Of a stretch of 64,000 bases of DNA, positions 3,439 through 64,000 are shown piece after piece. Source of the stretch: Spirochaetota bacterium (GTDB lineage: Bacteria; Spirochaetota; Leptospiria; Turneriellales; CBDBES01); NCBI GenBank assembly GCA_965206985.1, contig CBDBLF010000011.1:91384-155383 (forward strand), read 5' to 3'. The notes under the pieces are model-generated. The model had not been told where the DNA came from. It ran no database searches and saw only the letters and a list, made by a program, of their open reading frames with translations. Each line of letters opens with the position of its first letter. Positions within the stretch are counted from its first letter, which is position 1. A program made the translations under genes and the position numbers.

Positions 3439-6165
3439 GTGTGTGAAAAAAGAAGACGATTCATCTCTATTGTAATTTTTATAGTTAGGGGAATTTTGGT
3501 CTTAGCGATTTTTGGTTTTTCATTTCGGTGCGATGATCCGTTGGGCTTTCTTCTCGACGACACCAGTATGCGGGCGAGCGTAGACAAGCTTCTTGTTTAC
3601 GAGGGAAAATTGGCTTCCATTGGCTTTCGTCTTAACTCAAGTTTGTTTTCTGATGGAAAGTCAGCAACGCTTACCGCCAATTTAAGATGTAAAGGTCTGA
3701 GTAAGTCTGCACAAGCATCTCGCGTCACGATGGACAAAAACACGATTACGTGGACAAATTCTGACTGGGCAGCATGGAAAACATTTGTCTTCGATGCTCC
3801 TGATAATGAGAGGCAAGAGCCCTCTACAAATTGTGAACTCGTATTAGACCCCCTTGAGTCAAATGACGCTGGTTTTCATGGATTTAACAAGATTAAACCA
3901 ATTCCTGTTATTGTTCTCGACAATGACGGTGACGCAAATATTAAAGTGAGCTCTCGTAGTCTTGTGCTTCCCGAGGGCAGAAGTGTAAGTTATACGATTC
4001 GCTTAACAAATCGGCCTCATAATCAAGTGGAGGTGAACATTCTTCATAAAAATAACTTCCCTGAGTGGTTTTTGGTTTCCTCAAAACCAACCATTACAGT
4101 AGGAGGTGCCTATGTTAGCTCTCTTACCTTCACAACAGAAAATCATAATCGACCACAGACGGTTACCATCACATACCCCGAAGATATATATGCAAACGGG
4201 AATTTTCTATGTACGTTGAAACATACACTCACAACAGACGACCCTGTTTATCAAAATGTCTCGGAAGTGAACTTTCCTGAAGTGGTTCTTACCCTGAGTG
4301 ATAATGATACACTTAATTTTCAGCCAATTGATAATAACGGTGCTTCCATCTCCTCTTTAACAGGAAGAGAAGGCGAGACAACATCTTTTCAAATCAAGCC
4401 TCCGGTTACTTTGCACTCAGGAAGCACAATCACACTTGATGTGACCCCCATGAGCCCCGACCGTATTCAACTTGCTGACTCAAGTCAGAATTATAGCACA
4501 AGCCCCGTTCGGCTAACCTTTACGGACAGCAACCCTGTCATCGTCAATGTTAAGTTCATCGACGATTTGGTGGAGACGACGGCAGATCTTCTTGCGACTA
4601 AAATTGTGTATTCTGTGGTAACGGACGGTGCAGATGCTCCTGTGATTAACGGAAAATTGTTTTCTCCTAACGGCGGTTTTGCTGAAGCCGGTGGTACATT
4701 AGACATCATGATTATAGATAATATTGCTGACGATGACCGTGACGGTCTGATTGACATCTCCACTGCTACAATGCTAGACAACATGCGATATGATTTGGCG
4801 GGCACGAGTTATAAAACCTCGGCAACAGATCCAGGTGATTCCTCTGGTTGCCCAGCAGGTGGTTGTAACGGCTACGAGCTTACGGCAAATATTGATCTTT
4901 TAAACCTGCTTGATACGAATGGTAACGGCCAAATTGACAAGACCACGGTGACTGTTGCGGATGTTATGCATAGGGTGATTGATGTAAGCTCAGGCCAAGA
5001 TGAAAGTTGGGTTCCGGTGGGTAATAATGCAAACCGGTTTACGGGCACTTTCGAGGGTAACGGTCGCACCATCGCTAACTTGTGGGTGAATATTTCTCCT
5101 TCAGGTGATCACCATGCAGGTTTATTTGGTGTAACAGGTGACTCAGTTGCAATTCGTAATGTGGGTGTTGTCTCTGGTGGTGTTTCTGCTTCTGCTACGT
5201 TTTCTTATTCCGGTGGTCTGGTGGGTCTCTCTTCTTCTTCTTTGACGATCACAAATAGCTACTTTTCTGGGAATGGTGGTGTTTCTTCTTCTTCTCTTAC
5301 TGATGATTCTTATTCCGGTGGTCTGGTGGGGCGTTCTTTTTTTCCTTTGACGATCACGAATAGCTACTTTTCTGGGAGTGGTGGTGTTTCTGCTTCTGCT
5401 GGTTCGCTTTCTTATTCCGGTGGTCTGGTGGGTCAATCTACTAATTCTTTGACGATCACGAATAGCTACTTTTCTGGGAGTGGTGGTGTTTCTGCTTCTG
5501 CTTCTTCGCTTTCTTATTCCGGTGGTCTGGTGGGTTCTTCTTTTTTTTCTTTGACGATCACGAATAGCTACTTTTCTGGGAGTGGTGGTGTATTTTCTTC
5601 TGCTTCTGGTTCTTTTTCTTCTTCCGGTGGTCTGGTGGGACGTTCTTCTTCTTCTTTGACGATCACAAATAGCTACTTCTCTGGGAGTGGTGGTGTTTCC
5701 TCTTCTGCTTCTGCTTCTTCTGATCTTGTTTCTAGTTCTTATTCCGGTGGTCTGGTGGGTCTCTCTTCTTCTTCTTTGACGATCACAAATAGCTACTTTT
5801 CTGGGAGTGGTGGTGTTTCCTCTTCTTCTTCTGGTGCGCTTTCTTATTCCGGTGGTCTGGTGGGGGGTTCTTCTAATACTCCTGTGATCATGAATAGTTA
5901 TTGGAACATCGACGCACCTCAATCAGGCGACAAGCGAGCGCAGGGTGATGCTGAGGCCGACCCCATGGGTGCGGTGAGGCTTACGCTCAATCAACTCAAA
6001 GCAACCAGTGGCACCTATCCTAATTTATTAGACAACACGTGGGATCTAGGCACCACGACGCAACTACCCGCAGTCAAACAATGCACCCTTAATACCGCAA
6101 TGACGGGCTGTGCATCACCAGCTACGTATAGCGAGCTACTCGCTGGGCAACGTGTTAGCAATTGA
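3439..6165 (+). CDS. GLUG-repeat beta-helix surface lipoprotein copy 2 (Ig/Calx-beta-like N-terminal domains, 6 rungs)
   Basis: Basic N-region, hydrophobic stretch and FSFRC lipobox; Ig-like segments; DxDxDG motifs; GGLVG / ITNSY.SG.V GLUG repeats; C-terminal Cys pair. Confidence 0.85.
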   Translation: MCEKRRRFISIVIFIVRGILVLAIFGFSFRCDDPLGFLLDDTSMRASVDKLLVYEGKLASIGFRLNSSLFSDGKSATLTANLRCKGLSKSAQASRVTMDKNTITWTNSDWAAWKTFVFDAPDNERQEPSTNCELVLDPLESNDAGFHGFNKIKPIPVIVLDNDGDANIKVSSRSLVLPEGRSVSYTIRLTNRPHNQVEVNILHKNNFPEWFLVSSKPTITVGGAYVSSLTFTTENHNRPQTVTITYPEDIYANGNFLCTLKHTLTTDDPVYQNVSEVNFPEVVLTLSDNDTLNFQPIDNNGASISSLTGREGETTSFQIKPPVTLHSGSTITLDVTPMSPDRIQLADSSQNYSTSPVRLTFTDSNPVIVNVKFIDDLVETTADLLATKIVYSVVTDGADAPVINGKLFSPNGGFAEAGGTLDIMIIDNIADDDRDGLIDISTATMLDNMRYDLAGTSYKTSATDPGDSSGCPAGGCNGYELTANIDLLNLLDTNGNGQIDKTTVTVADVMHRVIDVSSGQDESWVPVGNNANRFTGTFEGNGRTIANLWVNISPSGDHHAGLFGVTGDSVAIRNVGVVSGGVSASATFSYSGGLVGLSSSSLTITNSYFSGNGGVSSSSLTDDSYSGGLVGRSFFPLTITNSYFSGSGGVSASAGSLSYSGGLVGQSTNSLTITNSYFSGSGGVSASASSLSYSGGLVGSSFFSLTITNSYFSGSGGVFSSASGSFSSSGGLVGRSSSSLTITNSYFSGSGGVSSSASASSDLVSSSYSGGLVGLSSSSLTITNSYFSGSGGVSSSSSGALSYSGGLVGGSSNTPVIMNSYWNIDAPQSGDKRAQGDAEADPMGAVRLTLNQLKATSGTYPNLLDNTWDLGTTTQLPAVKQCTLNTAMTGCASPATYSELLAGQRVSN

Positions 6166-55932: not shown

Positions 55933-56236
55933 GGTCGTGTCATATTTAATCAAAGTTTCCAATTAAAAAAGGAATTGACTTATCTCCCTTAAATTAAGGT
56001 TATGTCTCATTATGAACAAAAGAAAATATACCTTTGATACAAGTGGTTTTAGCTGTCAAAATACAGACTGCCATAAGTATCATAAGGTAAATGAAGGAAA
56101 TGTGCGCTTTGCTTATATGTCTGGTAAGTACAAACAAATAGCCTATTTAAAGTGCACCGCTTGTGGTAGATGCTTTTCAGAGAATAAAGGCACTATTTTT
56201 TTTCGTCGCAAGAAAAGCAAAGAAACCATTACTCGG
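55933..56236 (+). mobile_element. Truncated IS1 (left IR plus 5' part of insA)
   Basis: Matches the reverse complement of about 17623-17926; breaks off at ACCATTACTCGG and joins the phage sheath gene. Confidence 0.9.
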
Positions 56237-56894
56237 TGTCCGTTGCCCCCATGATATGTACAAATTTTGCCTGATGCTGTTGTCTGCTTGCATTCACACA
56301 AGCAAGGACATTCGCAACGGACGCGGTTGGAGCTGTACTTCGAAATGTATATGTATCGCCAGAAACAAAAGAATCAGTTGAAGTTGCCCCATCTGTAAAA
56401 ACGATATTAACACCAGCACCTAAGCTAATGGAACTTCCTGATGCAGGAGTCGTTATTTCTTCCGAAAATGTGTTTCCGCCATCTGATGATTTGCTGTAGA
56501 TTGCAGTGCCAGAGACTCCCGACTTAGTGATCTTGATTACAAAAGTACGCGAACCAGTGACCACTCCACTTGTTGTATGCGTGGCTGTCCCTGTCCCTTT
56601 ATGCACGAGGCTTCCGGTTGTGCCGGAAACATCAGCTTCTGCTCGTGCAAAAAGAATTTTGACAGGTGTTTGTTTCTTCGCTTGAGAGAACTCATTAAAG
56701 TAAACTCTGATTGCATCTAAAAGAGACCCCTGTTTGAGCACTTTCTTGGCATCGTAATAAGACGAGGCTTCATATACTTTATTGGCGACCCCTCCTTCAG
56801 CAACCCCAATTTTGAGGTGAATACCATCCGCACCTTTGGGTGTGCGTCCAACACCGCCATCGGTAAGAGTAATCTTTGCATCTCCTATGGCCAT
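56237..56894 (-). pseudogene. Tail sheath protein (DUF2586-like), 3'-truncated by IS1 sequence
   Basis: M...KITLTDGGVG....G.H.KIG....G..NK.Y, FVSGDTYTF...APT, FVHI.GA; only about 220 aa before the IS1 junction. Confidence 0.72.
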
Positions 56895-60512: not shown

Positions 60513-61757
60513 TTAATTTTTATAATCTTCAATATTGAGCTCATCAGATGTATCTGATTCAGAATTTAGTATTGAAGACTGTCTCGTTTCTTTTGGCAGA
60601 TGAAGCTTAGACGCCTCATCTTTGTAATCTTTGTAAAGAGCCTTGAGTGTCCTGAGTTCGCAGGTCTCTAATATTGTGAGTATTGCCTGATCAGACCGAT
60701 CGCCTTTACAAAGCTGATACAGGTTTTTTGTTTCTTGGCGTAGGCTGGCAATATAATCGTTACCCATCTCTGTAGACACCTTGATGTCTTGGAGATGCGC
60801 CTCAATCTCTTCTGCTGACAACTCGCTTGCGTCCTCACCAATCAAAGTAGATAGTGGATTGCTTAGTGCGCTAATCCGCACACTTAATTTCTCTGCTTCT
60901 CTTTCCTTCCGTTTTACATTAATCTTAAATTGCGCCAAAATGCCATTCAGCGTTGACTGCTTTAGATCAACTTCCTCAACATTTTCGTCTAAAAACTCTG
61001 GCAATTCTAAACCAAGCTCTTTCGCTATTTTTTTTGTTAGTTTCATAGTTTTTTCTTTTCCTCCATTGTTTTCATTTTGTTGTGGGGAGTCTGGGGATAA
61101 CATACCATCTGCTTGCCTCTCTTCTGTCGTGGGTGTCACATCTTTTATTTGATTGATTGGAAAGAGACTCGCTCGTCTTGTAGCGTAAGGGTCAGCCCCT
61201 TGATAGACTAACGATATTTCTCTATAGCCTGTAATACAAGTGACAATCAGGCTGACCATTTCACCATCCACCTCTTCACCAAGCACACGCCAGAAGTCGT
61301 CTCTAGCATGGCTTTTTTCCCAAAGAAAATTAAAGCCAACCGATACCGAGTGCAACGCACCAAGCCTGATCCCTTCTACAATTCGCTCGTTTTGTGATTT
61401 AGGTATTTGCAATTTTACGTTGATACCATTGGGCTCAGAAGTATCGTCCCACTTAACAGAAAGAACACTGCCCAACCACTGATTAACATCTGTCGTATGG
61501 TTTGGATAAACAGTTTGGTTTTTGAGCAGGCGGGCAGATGATTTTAGAACATTCTTTTTTTCTAAATTTAAATAATGCCCAGGAACAATAATTTTAGAAA
61601 GAGCTCTAAACACAGGATACACATATGTTTCATCTTCTTCTAGCTTAATATTCTTAGGTGGAAGTGGTGAGCTGGCTAGATCAACCTCTCCGGTAAGTTG
61701 GTCACGATCTAAATAAAGATTTACTTTATTTTCATATTCTTCTTTTTTCCCCATCAT
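60513..61757 (-). CDS. Prohead protease with C-terminal scaffold
   Basis: VY.NH, SVSVGF, EISLVY.GAD; coiled-coil tail; GGGAGA RBS before ATG 61757. Confidence 0.78.
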   Translation of the reverse strand: MMGKKEEYENKVNLYLDRDQLTGEVDLASSPLPPKNIKLEEDETYVYPVFRALSKIIVPGHYLNLEKKNVLKSSARLLKNQTVYPNHTTDVNQWLGSVLSVKWDDTSEPNGINVKLQIPKSQNERIVEGIRLGALHSVSVGFNFLWEKSHARDDFWRVLGEEVDGEMVSLIVTCITGYREISLVYQGADPYATRRASLFPINQIKDVTPTTEERQADGMLSPDSPQQNENNGGKEKTMKLTKKIAKELGLELPEFLDENVEEVDLKQSTLNGILAQFKINVKRKEREAEKLSVRISALSNPLSTLIGEDASELSAEEIEAHLQDIKVSTEMGNDYIASLRQETKNLYQLCKGDRSDQAILTILETCELRTLKALYKDYKDEASKLHLPKETRQSSILNSESDTSDELNIEDYKN

Positions 61758-61965
61758 ATCATTTCTCCCAAAACCCCTTGAGGGGTTCAATGTATGTTCT
61801 GGGGATGTCAGGTGCGATTTTATGTCACAACCTGTCTGTACGATCGCCTCTAAGCTATTGAATAGCCTTGCCTATCGCTTTTGTTTCTAAAACTGGGGAG
61901 TAACTACGTTTTGCCTCAAACCGCCTTACATGGCAATGAGAGGGCTTTTCTATATTTTTACTTTA

Positions 61966-62313
61966 TCATGCCAACTCTGTCATTGGCTCCTCTATATGCT
62001 GGGCTGTCCCAGATTGAGTATAAAAAAGACGTTCTGCAATGTCTCTGACATGCGGGGGAAGTTTCTCTAACGGGTAGTCGCCGTGAGCAATGGAAGGGTA
62101 ATGAGAACGCCAACTGCTATCTTCAGTTGCACCAACAACCATTTCGTAGGAATCAAACTCTGCGGCGTTTTCAATTAAAAAAATATCTGCCTCTTTGTCG
62201 TTTGCCTTGTTCATGTCATAAAGTTTTAGCTTAAAAGAGTCTTCAAATTCAACAGACCCAAAATCCCTAAGAGCCTCCAACGTGAATTCAAGTTTTTCTT
62301 TTAGGCCTCTCAT
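61966..62313 (-). CDS. Small acidic protein, candidate immunity protein
   Basis: 115 aa, ATGA overlap with the MuF-toxin stop; not part of the canonical head gene order. Confidence 0.55.
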   Translation of the reverse strand: MRGLKEKLEFTLEALRDFGSVEFEDSFKLKLYDMNKANDKEADIFLIENAAEFDSYEMVVGATEDSSWRSHYPSIAHGDYPLEKLPPHVRDIAERLFYTQSGTAQHIEEPMTELA

Positions 62314-64000
62314 TTTAATTCCATCGCAAATTTAAAATATTCATCCACATCGTATTTCATCGCAAAAGAGCTTGTGATTCTATGCTCATTCATATCTACA
62401 ATCGTTACAACGTTCATCGCAGAGTTATAAAAACCAACCCTGTCAGCACCCGACGGCTTTCTGCCAATGGCATGAGCATGAGGGAAAACACGGTCAAAAT
62501 CATTCAGAACCCTGCGACTTAACTGTATATAATCCTCTTGCGTTTTGACAAGCACATTTTTTCCATATGTTCTAAATTCATCTTTGTGATCTTTAAAGTG
62601 CTTCAAAAACAGATTGTTTTTCTTATCTTTCAGCTTCGTGTCGATCCACTGCGAGCCTCTGGCTGAATTGATCTTTGATGCCATTTCTTCATTCGTCAAA
62701 CCCTTGTAATATTTTCTGGTTTTTTCCAGACGATCTATAGCCAGTTGCCTTCGTTTAGTGGATTCACGATCAATGATCTTCTTATCAGGCCAGTTGGGTT
62801 TCTTGAGTGTCTGACCGGTTTGGGTGACCACGGTCTCTGGCAAACCCACCACAGTGGTCGTTCTACATCTACCGTGGTAGGGTGGTAGCTTCACCGAAAG
62901 ACCAGAAAGTATTTTCCTCGTCGATACACCCTGTGGCACGCTCTTTGGCCAAGGAAAGTTTTTAACCACCTGATCGGGTTCAGTGGTCATCACCTCTTTC
63001 ACATAGGTTGAGGCAACCTTCGTGCTGATCCGCCGTCCGCTCATCGTACGGCAAATATCAGATGTCTTCTTGTCAATCACTGCTACAATCTCTAGCGTCT
63101 GTATGCCGATCTCCTCAAAAGTCATGGTGCGTGCAAAGTTACGGCTCTTATTCACAGCATTAGAAATCACCAAACGGTAGTGATTCATTGTGTGGCGGTC
63201 TTTCATAACCTCGGGCACGGCGTGATCTAAAAGTGAAATGATCTCTTTTTCTGTTTTGCCGATTCCCTTCAAAGAATCTAAAACAGCCTCTTTGAGCGGT
63301 GCGTCTAAGCCACCAACCACTTTGCCAAAATCAAACCTTTGTTGAGCCACAAAAAAATCAATCGCATCTTGGTCATTTGCATGCTCGCCAATAATCGTAC
63401 CTGCCTCCGTTTTGACCTCTGAGCCGGCTTGCCAAATTCGTTTGGTATATTCCACGATTGTTGGAACAAGCTCTTGAGGAATATCTTTTTTGATCCGTTT
63501 AGAAATAAGCTCTTGAATCTCTCTCTCTGCTCTTCTCTCTTTGACCATTTTCTTGATCAGATTAGTAAGGGTTACAACCTCATTTCCATACTTAGCTAAA
63601 AACTCTTGGGTCGCTTCACGCTCAAGCATTCGCCCTTTCAATACTTCTTTTCTTTTTTTATTCATTGGAGATGATTCGTTGAGAGCTTTTTTTTTTACTA
63701 GATTTCCGTTCGGGAAATCTAGCATCGCCTCAGAAAAACCACTACCGCTAGTTTTTCCTCGGGGATACTCGCTACCGTTCGGGAAATCTAGCATCGCCTC
63801 AGAAAAACCACTACCGCTAGTTTTTCCTCGGGGATACTCATCACCGTTCGGGAAATCTAGCATCGCCTTAACCTGCTTTTCTTTGCCCGTTGCCTTTTCA
63901 TAGCCCAGCTCCCGTGCTGCTGTATCTATATCAATGATTCCTGCTTGATATTTCATGAGTATAACTCTAGTTTTGATCTCTGTGGCTTCTGCATTTTCTT
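62310..64000 (-). CDS. Portal C-terminus fused in frame to MuF (SPP1 gp7-like) minor head protein with putative C-terminal RNase toxin; 5' end outside the window
   Basis: Frame open to base 64000 (ENAEATEIKTRVILMKYQAGIIDIDTAARELGY, portal-like tail); MuF motifs DKKTSDICR and LPPYHGRCRT; C-terminal HFKDHKDEF...YIQLS...GFY...ITSSF. Confidence 0.75.
   Translation of the reverse strand, partial: ENAEATEIKTRVILMKYQAGIIDIDTAARELGYEKATGKEKQVKAMLDFPNGDEYPRGKTSGSGFSEAMLDFPNGSEYPRGKTSGSGFSEAMLDFPNGNLVKKKALNESSPMNKKRKEVLKGRMLEREATQEFLAKYGNEVVTLTNLIKKMVKERRAEREIQELISKRIKKDIPQELVPTIVEYTKRIWQAGSEVKTEAGTIIGEHANDQDAIDFFVAQQRFDFGKVVGGLDAPLKEAVLDSLKGIGKTEKEIISLLDHAVPEVMKDRHTMNHYRLVISNAVNKSRNFARTMTFEEIGIQTLEIVAVIDKKTSDICRTMSGRRISTKVASTYVKEVMTTEPDQVVKNFPWPKSVPQGVSTRKILSGLSVKLPPYHGRCRTTTVVGLPETVVTQTGQTLKKPNWPDKKIIDRESTKRRQLAIDRLEKTRKYYKGLTNEEMASKINSARGSQWIDTKLKDKKNNLFLKHFKDHKDEFRTYGKNVLVKTQEDYIQLSRRVLNDFDRVFPHAHAIGRKPSGADRVGFYNSAMNVVTIVDMNEHRITSSFAMKYDVDEYFKFAMELK
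63687..63696 (-). repeat. A10 homopolymer at the portal/MuF junction
   Basis: GTA AAA AAA AAA GCT; an A9 allele gives TGA overlapping the ATG at 63665. Confidence 0.9.
63706..63868 (-). repeat. 69-bp in-frame tandem repeat (about 2.4 copies; AMLDFPNGxEYPRGKTSGSGFSE)
   Basis: 25-nt core CCGTTCGGGAAATCTAGCATCGCCT at 63706, 63775, 63844. Confidence 0.92.

What the first reader, a model, noticed from the sequence alone, without database searches (positions are those of the whole stretch)
61966..62760. MuF C-terminal putative RNase toxin with a coupled candidate immunity gene
Seen: after the MuF motif LPPYHGRCRT there is an extension of about 170 aa ending in LKHFKDHKDEF...QEDYIQLSRRV...VGFYN...VTIVD...RITSSF. 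A 115-aa acidic ORF overlaps its stop (ATGA) and interrupts the usual MuF-protease order. Known: MuF polymorphic toxins of temperate phages carry C-terminal toxins followed by immunity genes, and an H-x-x-x-H-x-x-E-F...Y pattern recurs in BECR-fold (colicin D/CdiA-like) RNases. Inference: a virion-delivered toxin/immunity pair. The partner matches no immunity family I recognise, and the spirochaete-like host is an unusual setting.
Basis: partly seen in the sequence, partly recalled or inferred. Interest (0 to 1): 0.62.

Follow-up and report, generated by a model that had tools for sequence, protein, structure and literature searches.

The report
Phage head RNase toxin with inhibitor
A decayed prophage in a Leptospira-like bacterium carries a head protein (MuF) ending in a predicted colicin D-type RNA-cutting toxin, followed by a small acidic protein that most likely blocks it; the pair is a new member of a known kind, and it survives in another genome as repeated toxin/inhibitor cassettes after the rest of the phage has gone.

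Summary
On the minus strand, a MuF head-protein ORF (62310-63998, open at the window edge) has 182 residues after LPPYHGRCRT. A 115-aa acidic ORF (61966-62313) overlaps its stop by ATGA.

The fold guess is supported. An AlphaFold2 model of the last 170 aa (pLDDT 87) shows the colicin-like BECR topology. Its best PDB matches are a CdiA-CT toxin and colicin D, though only at marginal E-values. Two histidines on the first core helix and a Ser/Thr on the last strand are conserved in about 30 relatives.

The partner is a real, co-inherited gene. It follows the toxin domain, nearly always with a 4-nt overlap, in nine further loci, including an Aquifex prophage. It is always acidic, and dN/dS is 0.1-0.24.

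One metagenome contig holds a prophage relic reduced to a portal fragment plus 3.5 tandem toxin/partner cassettes.

Two corrections. The domain is not polymorphic within this MuF clade. This prophage has lost its tail genes, so virion delivery is inferred and probably defunct here.

MuF/portal-PBECR fusions and MuF toxin-immunity pairs are already described. This is a new family within a known kind. Toxicity, RNase activity and neutralisation are untested.

The parts
62310..63998 (-). Portal-tail / MuF / C-terminal toxin ORF, open at the window end (called product 588 aa). The first ~45 residues resemble the C-terminal tail of portal proteins. The MuF domain spans about residues 100-390 of the 562 visible.
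   Evidence: PF04233, E 0.014, sub-threshold; phrog_9907, 3e-34; portal PHROGs 2662/3753 on the N-terminal part; TIGR01641, 7e-6; P0026; portal-MuF-CTD fusions of 874-908 aa such as P0018 and P0037.
62859..62888 (-). MuF signature LPPYHGRCRT; the C-terminal extension begins after it.
   Evidence: The motif is present in all relatives.
62313..62810 (-). C-terminal module (~166 aa) that recurs as free-standing cassettes. It is a helical N-terminal part with the L-x3-E-x3-K (LTNEEMASKIN) motif plus the BECR core.
   Evidence: 79-82% identity to L001 copies, with homology starting at KKPNWPDKK; 11 representative clusters.
62313..62648 (-). Predicted colicin-like BECR RNase core (W59-K170 of the module). 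It comprises pre-alpha helix 71-86, alpha 95-108, and strands 111-115, 128-133, 138-143, 148-154.
   Evidence: AF2 model, pLDDT 87 / pTM 0.85. Foldseek top hits 8ey4_A (CdiA-CT), 1v74_A and 1tfk_A (colicin D), and 5i4q_A at rank 11. P0020 (107 aa) consists of this core alone.
62586..62600 (-). H75-x3-H79 on the pre-alpha helix: predicted catalytic histidines.
   Evidence: Each is conserved in 29 of 30 family members. The position matches the catalytic His of colicin-like BECR and PBECR domains as described in PMC5512222 and preprint 10.64898/2026.08.28.747851.
62370..62381 (-). R148-I149-T150-S151 on the last strand (beta4): predicted second half of the active site.
   Evidence: I149 is nearly invariant, and Ser/Thr two residues after it is present in most members. 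A C-terminal Thr/Ser is the PBECR/colicin D configuration.
61966..62313 (-). 115-aa acidic partner: candidate cognate inhibitor (immunity/antitoxin), translationally coupled through the ATGA overlap. Conserved C-terminal motif W-x6-I-x2-G-x-YPL-x2-LP-x-HVRD-x-A-x2-LYY.
   Evidence: phrog_9741, 8e-9; alignment across 10 loci; dN/dS 0.11-0.24; no Pfam family; pI 4.3-5.0 in all homologues.
60513..61790 (-). Prohead protease with C-terminal scaffold-like coiled coil: the next gene of the head module (context).
   Evidence: phrog_8158, 1e-40.
56229..56894 (-). Truncated tail-sheath gene marking the broken end of the prophage (context: the delivery apparatus is incomplete).
   Evidence: 221 aa match only positions 1-118 of the 376-position sheath profile phrog_907. 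No tail genes follow.

Best explanation
[quoted passage not shown] Two histidines one helical turn apart (H75, H79) and the Arg/Thr/Ser strand (R148-S151) would form the active site. By analogy with its structural neighbours, the likely substrate is tRNA or another conserved RNA.

The 115-aa acidic protein is translated by coupling from the same mRNA. It would bind the basic nuclease one-to-one and block it in the producing cell.

In an intact phage of this lineage the nuclease would ride into the capsid on MuF, which binds the portal and in some relatives is fused to it. It would then enter the next host with the DNA. Cells lacking the inhibitor would suffer RNA cleavage; lysogens would be protected.

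In this window the prophage has lost its tail genes. The pair probably persists here because losing the inhibitor is harmful, or because the inhibitor protects against related phages.

Shown: the gene anatomy, fold similarity, residue conservation, co-inheritance, purifying selection and cassette survival. Inferred: RNase activity, toxicity, binding, packaging and injection.
For: Fold:
- The AF2 model is confident (pLDDT 87.2, pTM 0.85) and has pre-alpha + alpha + four strands.
- Foldseek against PDB ranks CdiA-CT O32:H37 (8ey4_A, prob 1.00, TM 0.65 on target length) and colicin D tRNase (1v74_A, 1tfk_A) at 1-3, and CdiA-CT NC101 at 11.
- This is exactly the 'Colicin-like' topology and active-site placement described.

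Residues:
- H75 and H79 are each kept in 29 of 30 members. Y98, F131 and I149 are nearly invariant, and Ser/Thr on beta4 is present in most.
- Two different family members give sub-threshold hits to two of the five PBECR Pfam models and to no other nuclease family (PBECR3 E 0.036, PBECR2 E 0.14).

Partner:
- It sits immediately downstream in the window, L001 (twice), L006, L007/L008, L009, L010, L011, L012 and the Aquifex MAG prophage L005. The overlap is 4 nt in seven gene pairs, 14 nt in L007/L008 and an uncertain start in L005.
- It diverges in step with the domain: where the domain is 37% identical, the partner is 43% identical.
- Partners are all acidic (pI 4.3-5.0), against pI 9.8 for the domain.
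- Both genes have dN/dS of 0.06-0.24.

Module behaviour:
- Contig L001 keeps only a 57-aa portal fragment followed by T1-I1, a truncated T-I, T2-I2 and a start-less T3 without a partner. It lies between mfd and the nuo operon.
- In run X1, which holds the window's sequence, depth over the domain+partner region is about twice that over the MuF N-terminal part. There are unitigs 10-14% diverged, and a partner-end/32 nt/domain joint.

Precedent:
- PBECR fused to MuF and portal domains is a described architecture, predicted to be injected (PMC5512222).
- Two MuF toxins have been shown to be neutralised by adjacent immunity proteins (PMC11699363).
Against: - Foldseek E-values are marginal (best 1.3e-2; none at or below 1e-3), and query-normalised TM is only 0.32-0.36 because the query carries an extra ~60-aa helical part.
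- No sequence-profile method places the domain in a curated nuclease family at a significant score.
- The partner model is poor (pLDDT 58) and has no structural match. No complex could be modelled.
- The domain is not variable among close MuF relatives, unlike classic polymorphic toxins. The partner's C-terminal motif is unusually conserved for an immunity protein. Both facts would also fit a conserved structural or assembly role.
- Iyer et al. note that phage Mu's own MuF C-terminal PBECR is catalytically inactive, so a BECR fold on MuF does not guarantee activity.
- The L001 array is a prophage relic, not a phage-free locus.
- This prophage is truncated.
Confidence: 0.68

Rival explanations
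1. The pair is a genuine toxin/inhibitor pair, but its working context is intracellular rather than virion-delivered. It would act as a toxin-antitoxin-like addiction or abortive-infection module that stabilises the prophage or excludes other phages. The fusion to MuF would be a by-product of where the cassette landed.
For: The cassettes outlive the phage. L001 keeps several under purifying selection after the head and tail genes were lost. The window's prophage is tail-less yet both ORFs are intact. Free-standing short forms exist, such as P0020 (107 aa) with a coupled downstream ORF.
Against: In every reasonably intact locus the domain is the C-terminus of MuF or portal-MuF in the head module, an arrangement conserved from Spirochaetota to Aquificota. 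That is hard to explain unless capsid targeting matters. No DNA-binding or autoregulatory domain is seen in the partner. Persistence in relics is also expected for a delivered toxin whose immunity gene remains useful.
Confidence: 0.2
2. The C-terminal domain is a non-catalytic RNA/DNA-binding or portal-docking part of MuF, like the inactive MuF-C of phage Mu. The small acidic protein would be a head-assembly chaperone or scaffold accessory, not an inhibitor.
For: The domain and partner are conserved rather than variable across the whole MuF clade. PHROG 9907, which covers MuF plus most of the extension, is labelled 'minor head protein and DNA pilot'. An inactive PBECR on Mu gp30 is a precedent. 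There is no significant hit to any nuclease profile.
Against: The residues expected for catalysis are the best-conserved ones: H75, H79 and the beta4 Ser/Thr. An assembly factor has no reason to be kept, duplicated and held under purifying selection in a relic that has lost portal, MuF, protease and capsid. In L001, the only domain copy without a partner is also the one without a start codon and with an altered C-terminus.
Confidence: 0.1

Closest known systems
PBECR domains fused to MuF and portal in phage 'polyvalent proteins' (Iyer, Burroughs, Anand, de Souza, Aravind 2017, PMC5512222)
   Same: The architecture is the same: portal tail / MuF / C-terminal BECR-fold domain in the head module. 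So is the predicted active-site layout, with His on the N-terminal helix and Thr/Ser near the C-terminus. The proposed logic of packaging and injection with the DNA also matches.
   Different: No member reaches the gathering score of any Pfam PBECR model; the best are E 0.036 (PBECR3) and 0.14 (PBECR2) for single members. That paper treats PBECRs as anti-host or anti-defence effectors and does not stress a cognate inhibitor. Here a coupled partner is universal, and the pair also occurs as cassettes.
MuF polymorphic toxins of temperate phages (Jamet et al. 2017, PMC5576092); characterised members Apk2 and Bxa (PMC11699363)
   Same: There is an N-terminal MuF domain, a C-terminal enzymatic toxin-like domain, a small ORF immediately downstream, and a prophage head-morphogenesis location.
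   Different: The C-terminal domain is not swapped among close relatives. All MuFs at 33% identity or more carry the same family. The characterised MuF toxins are a (p)ppApp synthetase and an ADP-ribosyltransferase, not an RNase. Spirochaetes are not mentioned in the 2017 survey's main text.
Colicin D tRNase/ImmD and CdiA-CT/CdiI pairs of the colicin-like BECR group (PDB 1v74, 1tfk, 8ey4, 5i4q)
   Same: These are the best structural matches. Like them, this is a basic nuclease with a small acidic cognate inhibitor encoded directly downstream, and it has the pre-alpha + alpha + beta1-4 topology.
   Different: There is no detectable sequence similarity. Delivery is by a phage capsid protein rather than by colicin translocation or two-partner secretion. 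The core is preceded by an extra ~55-aa helical segment with its own conserved motif. The partner fold is unknown.
BECR-Tox3/DUF6883 with DUF4926, often fused to Phage_Mu_F (preprint 10.64898/2026.08.28.747851)
   Same: It is a colicin-like BECR domain at the C-terminus of MuF proteins with a conserved small downstream gene, read as toxin-immunity.
   Different: Neither DUF6883 nor DUF4926 is hit by any of the 30 domain sequences or 9 partner sequences, even at E up to 10. This is a separate family pair.
Orphan CT/immunity arrays of CDI and Rhs loci (Poole et al. 2011, cited in PMC5576092; comparison made from my own knowledge)
   Same: L001 holds tandem, diverged toxin-tip/immunity cassettes, some truncated, that keep a little of the upstream linker sequence.
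   Different: No full-length 'main' gene lies upstream. The array sits in a prophage relic beginning with a portal fragment, so it may derive from serial prophage decay rather than from tip-displacement recombination.

Membership tests
MuF polymorphic toxin (Jamet 2017) | N-terminal MuF (SPP1 gp7 / Mu F) domain | tested here: met
   phrog_9907 3e-34 and phrog_18054 5e-25; TIGR01641 7e-6. PF04233 only reaches E 0.014, below its gathering score. The LPPYHGRCRT motif is present.
MuF polymorphic toxin (Jamet 2017) | Gene lies next to or after the portal gene in the head/packaging module of a (pro)phage | tested here: met
   The N-terminus of the ORF matches portal tails. Protease, decoration protein, major capsid, neck and sheath genes follow. 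Relatives have the order terminase-portal-MuF.
MuF polymorphic toxin (Jamet 2017) | C-terminal extension carrying a toxin domain | tested here: inconclusive
   The extension is 182 aa. At fold level it matches toxin RNases. No curated toxin profile is hit significantly. Toxicity cannot be tested here.
MuF polymorphic toxin (Jamet 2017) | Small ORF (<150 aa) immediately downstream as candidate immunity | tested here: met
   The 115-aa ORF overlaps by ATGA. It is conserved in nine other loci.
MuF polymorphic toxin (Jamet 2017) | Polymorphism: related N-terminal domains carry different C-terminal toxin domains | tested here: not met
   All 30 MuF relatives with 33-100% identity in the MuF region carry the same C-terminal family. 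Only remote MuFs differ: P0051 has an HExxH domain and P0053 has PF03496 ADP-ribosyltransferase, at 26-27% identity.
Colicin-like BECR RNase / PBECR | Topology: pre-alpha helix + alpha + four-stranded antiparallel sheet | tested here: met
   The AF2 model has helices 71-86 and 95-108 and strands 111-115, 128-133, 138-143 and 148-154. Foldseek top hits are colicin-like BECR toxins, with marginal E-values.
Colicin-like BECR RNase / PBECR | Conserved His on the pre-alpha/N-terminal helix and Thr/Ser (or His) on the terminal strand | tested here: met
   H75 and H79 are each 29/30. Ser/Thr two residues after invariant-like I149 is present in most members, and one subgroup has His at +4 instead.
Colicin-like BECR RNase / PBECR | Significant match to a curated family profile (Pfam PBECR1-5, Colicin_D, DUF6883, Ntox families) | tested here: not met
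   The best hits are PBECR3 E 0.036 and PBECR2 E 0.14, each for one of 30 members. Nothing was found for Colicin_D or DUF6883. A PDB profile search gave no nuclease.
Colicin-like BECR RNase / PBECR | Metal-independent endoribonuclease activity | not testable with these tools
   This needs an in vitro assay.
Known immunity-protein families (Pfam Imm*, ImmD, CdiI, DUF4926) | Profile match of the partner | tested here: not met
   No Pfam, NCBIfam or PADLOC hit for the window's partner. Among nine partners there is only one stray Imm5 hit at E 0.066. There is no PDB sequence or fold match. It does belong to phrog_9741, of unknown function.
Type II toxin-antitoxin system | Two-gene operon; antitoxin with DNA-binding/autoregulatory domain, usually upstream of the toxin | tested here: inconclusive
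   A coupled two-gene unit is present. The order is toxin then inhibitor, and no DNA-binding domain is detectable. Regulation was not tested.

The most novel reading that the evidence does not exclude
The MuF-borne RNase is not an optional, swappable weapon. It would be a conserved, obligatory infection factor of a phage lineage spanning Spirochaetota to Aquificota, cutting a specific host RNA on entry. Its toxin/inhibitor cassette would be addictive enough to outlive the phage, leaving tandem relic arrays in host chromosomes. Those arrays would then act as a bank of immunity genes against related phages. That would be a phage-capsid counterpart of CDI/Rhs orphan arrays, and a route by which phage structural-gene tips become host toxin-antitoxin or immunity loci.
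Probability: 0.25. Interest if true: 0.7.

Novelty: new member of a known kind. Interest (0 to 1): 0.45.

Why it matters
According to the papers read here, only two MuF toxin types have been characterised experimentally: a (p)ppApp synthetase and an ADP-ribosyltransferase. The biological role of MuF toxins is still called unknown. RNase-type MuF/PBECR fusions are so far predictions only.

This family offers a compact test case of about 110 aa with clear candidate catalytic residues. It has a universally linked inhibitor from a family with no known function (PHROG 9741). It also has natural 'experiments': free-standing cassettes, a partner-less truncated copy, and paralogous pairs for specificity tests.

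The relic array suggests how phage head-gene tips can become resident host toxin/immunity loci. The practical gain is modest. It would name a new BECR subfamily and its immunity family, and improve annotation of spirochaete prophages.

Tried and rejected
- Sequence searches of the domain and partner gave nothing significant for either, apart from PHROG 9907/9741. This covered Pfam, NCBIfam, PADLOC, PHROGs and PDB sequences, including a 15-sequence profile.
- tblastn and blastn against 50,697 phage records found no cultured phage with the domain or partner. Only the MuF domain matched, in Stenotrophomonas and Rhizobium phages.
- The search for related loci in viral, genome and metagenome collections gave no close relatives. 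L003/L004 are spurious hits to a small secreted protein that shares only HFKNHKDEFKK. L005 (Aquifex MAG) was the one useful hit.
- Foldseek against BFVD was not informative.
- The partner's AF2 model was poor (pLDDT 58), so its fold search is meaningless.
- I first read L001 as a phage-free chromosomal locus. I rejected that after finding a 57-aa portal fragment abutting the first cassette.
- I first read P0014 (183 aa) and P0017 (168 aa) as free-standing toxins. Their contexts show split MuF genes in low-coverage assemblies, so they are probably frameshifted MuFs.
- Promoter and terminator scans were at chance level.
The window's own genome could not be searched for further cassettes or for the portal upstream of the window edge.
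Full report
**1. What is in the sequence**

The minus strand carries one long ORF from 63998, where it is still open at the window edge, to a TGA at 62310-62312. The gene caller's product for it in the public collection is 588 aa (P0026).

Its first ~45 visible residues match the C-terminal tails of portal proteins (phrog_2662, phrog_3753). Residues ~100-390 are a MuF/SPP1-gp7 head protein: phrog_9907 3e-34, phrog_18054 5e-25, TIGR01641 7e-6. Pfam PF04233 reaches only E 0.014.

The MuF signature LPPYHGRCRT is at 62859-62888, and 182 residues follow it.

A 115-aa ORF (61966-62313) starts at an ATG overlapping the TGA (...AAAATGAGAGG...). It is followed by the prohead protease, a small virion protein, the major capsid protein, neck proteins and a sheath gene. 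That sheath gene is only 221 aa and matches only the first third of the sheath profile.

**2. The C-terminal domain is a small, rare family that always travels with MuF**

An exhaustive HMMER scan of 1.84 billion cluster representatives, using the last 170 aa, found only 11 clusters. Most of the longer hits are MuF proteins (383-497 aa) or portal-like/MuF fusions (883-908 aa), and in every hit the match lies at the very C-terminus.

I then searched with the MuF part alone and read the C-termini of all hits. Every relative from 100% down to 33% identity ends in the same domain family. Several subgroups can be seen in alignment A4. Only remote MuFs end differently: P0051 has an HExxH domain and P0053 an ADP-ribosyltransferase.

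So the domain is a conserved part of this MuF clade and not a variable tip. On this point the 'polymorphic toxin' label does not fit. Source names of the relatives are Spirochaetes, Spirochaetota and Leptospirales MAGs. One distant member sits in an Aquifex MAG prophage. No cultured phage in INPHARED has the domain.

**3. Fold**

With a 15-sequence alignment, AlphaFold2 gave a confident model (pLDDT 87.2, pTM 0.85):
- three N-terminal helices (residues 14-56 of the 170);
- helix 71-86;
- helix 95-108;
- four strands: 111-115, 128-133, 138-143 and 148-154.

Foldseek against PDB placed a CdiA-CT toxin (8ey4_A: E 1.3e-2, probability 1.00, target-normalised TM 0.65) and the colicin D tRNase domain (1v74_A, 1tfk_A) in ranks 1-3. 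Another CdiA-CT tRNase (5i4q_A) was at rank 11. The E-values are marginal, and the remaining hits are noise.

The topology is nevertheless exactly the 'Colicin-like' BECR layout described in a 2026 preprint: pre-alpha + alpha + beta1-4, with active-site residues on the pre-alpha helix and beta4. Iyer et al. (2017) give the PBECR active site as a His in the N-terminal helix plus a C-terminal Thr/Ser.

In the 30-sequence alignment the best-conserved positions are H75 and H79, each 29/30 and one helical turn apart on the pre-alpha helix. Y98, F131 and I149 follow. A Ser/Thr two residues after I149 on beta4 is present in most members.

No curated profile is matched significantly. However, two different members give weak hits to PBECR3 (E 0.036) and PBECR2 (E 0.14), and to no other nuclease family. 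Among 24,736 Pfam families that is unlikely to be coincidence, though it is not proof.

The domain is a new sequence family within the colicin-like/PBECR group.

**4. The partner is a real gene that is co-inherited with the domain**

Homologues of the 115-aa ORF (10 clusters) lie directly downstream of the domain. They overlap its stop by 4 nt in the window, L001 (two pairs), L006, L009, L010, L011 and L012. The overlap is 14 nt in L007/L008, and the start is uncertain in L005.

These loci cover all the sequence subgroups of the domain. The partners align with a conserved C-terminal motif: W...I..G.YPL..LP.HVRD.A..LYY. Where the domain has diverged to 37% identity, the partner is 43% identical.

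All partners are acidic (pI 4.3-5.0), while the domain is basic (pI 9.8). Both genes show dN/dS of 0.06-0.24.

The partner hits PHROG 9741 (unknown function, 8e-9) but no Pfam, NCBIfam, PADLOC or PDB entry. Its AF2 model is poor (pLDDT 58), so nothing can be said about its fold.

**5. The cassette outlives the phage**

Contig L001 (59 kb, ENA metagenome) carries the following between mfd and the nuo operon:
- a 57-aa portal fragment (5329-5499, 63% identical to P0030);
- T1-I1 (170 + 107 aa);
- a truncated T and truncated I;
- T2-I2 (164 + 103 aa);
- a third domain copy that lacks a start codon, has a changed C-terminus, and has no partner.

No MuF domain, protease or capsid gene remains. The full copies are 71-82% identical to the window's domain and are still under purifying selection, including between copies within the array (dN/dS 0.19-0.23).

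I first took this for a phage-free locus. The portal fragment shows it is a prophage relic. That makes the point sharper: everything was lost except the domain/partner units, and the only partner-less copy is the disabled one. This is what one expects of a toxin/inhibitor pair and not of a head-assembly factor.

The run that holds the window's sequence (X1) gives a hint of the same thing in the window's own sample. Depth over the MuF N-terminal part is ~36, but 64-135 over the domain+partner region. There are additional unitigs 10-14% diverged, and a joint that links a partner end to a domain start across 32 nt.

**6. Mechanism, with its status**

- Shown: anatomy, fold similarity, residue conservation, coupling, co-inheritance, selection and cassette survival.
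- Inferred from the families involved: the domain is a metal-independent endoRNase that probably cuts tRNA or another conserved RNA, as colicin D and the related CdiA-CTs do. The acidic partner binds and blocks it. MuF carries it into the capsid: SPP1 gp7 binds the portal and is present at 1-2 copies per capsid (cited in PMC5576092). The domain would then enter the next cell with the DNA (the proposal of Iyer 2017).

Whether the injected nuclease serves inter-bacterial competition (Jamet 2017) or host takeover and anti-defence (Iyer 2017) cannot be decided from sequence. The domain's strict conservation within the lineage favours a role in the phage's own infection cycle.

In this window the tail module is missing, so delivery is probably defunct. 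The pair may persist through addiction or as protection against related phages.

**7. Comparison and novelty**

Three things are already described:
- portal/MuF-PBECR fusions (PMC5512222);
- MuF toxins with downstream immunity ORFs (PMC5576092, PMC11699363);
- a MuF-associated colicin-like BECR family with a cognate small gene (BECR-Tox3/DUF6883 + DUF4926, the 2026 preprint).

This case is not BECR-Tox3, because there is no DUF6883 or DUF4926 signal. It also fails the PBECR profile thresholds. It is therefore a new domain family plus a new partner family within a known kind.

What I did not find in the papers read is a MuF-tip/immunity cassette array left behind in a prophage relic. This is based on one contig plus a depth signal and needs confirmation.

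**8. Verdict**

My confidence in 'BECR RNase plus cognate inhibitor' is about 0.68. Interest is moderate (0.45): this is a solid, testable new member, not a new principle.

Noticed in passing
L001:5329-7821 (ENA ERZ26693861 contig, between mfd and nuo): A prophage relic reduced to a 57-aa portal fragment followed by T1-I1, a truncated T-I, T2-I2 and a start-less, partner-less T3. The copies are 71-82% identical to the window's domain and under purifying selection.
   Followed up: yes
window 61994-62738 (run X1): In the run that holds the window, depth over the toxin+partner region is about double that of the MuF N-terminal part. There are unitigs 10-14% diverged, and a joint partner-end (62019) / 32 nt / domain residue ~33 (62726). 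This implies extra tandem cassettes in the same sample.
   Followed up: partly
window 62466-62480: The beta1-beta2 loop of the domain contains a His-Ala repeat (PHAHA) whose length varies: one unit fewer in P0015 and in an X1 variant (6-nt deletion at 62473), and more in the L001 T2 copy (PHAYAHAHA). This is a small indel hotspot next to the predicted active site.
   Followed up: partly
window 63657-63863: Three in-frame tandem copies of a 23-aa (69-nt) unit, MLDFPNG(D/S)EYPRGKTSGSGFSEA, lie in the linker between the portal tail and MuF. The third copy is partial.
   Followed up: no
window 63687-63696: An A10 run on the coding strand encodes KKK at the portal/MuF junction. A KKK at the equivalent place is seen in many relatives (P0018, P0019, P0025, P0030, P0044, P0047, P0050), while other relatives have separate portal and MuF genes (L010-L012).
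   Followed up: partly
window 56229-56894: The tail-sheath gene is truncated: 221 aa match only positions 1-118 of a 376-position profile. No tail genes lie beyond it, so the prophage is a head-module remnant.
   Followed up: partly
window 62080-62140 (partner residues 59-78) versus P0001: The closest partner homologue (92% identical) differs at 9 positions, 7 of them clustered in residues 59-78 (MVVGATEDSSWRSHYPSIAH versus MFTGATEDSSWRFRYVAIAR). This may be a specificity patch or a recombination tract.
   Followed up: no
L005:3798-6575 (MAG labelled Aquifex sp., WFPV01000079.1): A prophage in a different phylum has the same order: MuF with a related C-terminal domain (KHFEKHKDEL...), then a small ORF ending ...LPEHVRDLIS, then the prohead protease.
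   Followed up: partly
L010:4771-5862: In one relative, a 363-aa protein with F5/F8 type C (discoidin) and Big_1 hits is inserted between the partner gene and the next head gene.
   Followed up: no
window 62673-62699 (module residues 42-50): The helical segment before the BECR core carries its own nearly invariant motif L-x3-E-x3-K (LTNEEMASKIN). It is kept in the free-standing cassettes but absent from the 107-aa core-only form P0020. Its function is unknown; it could be a docking, cleavage or substrate-recognition element.
   Followed up: no
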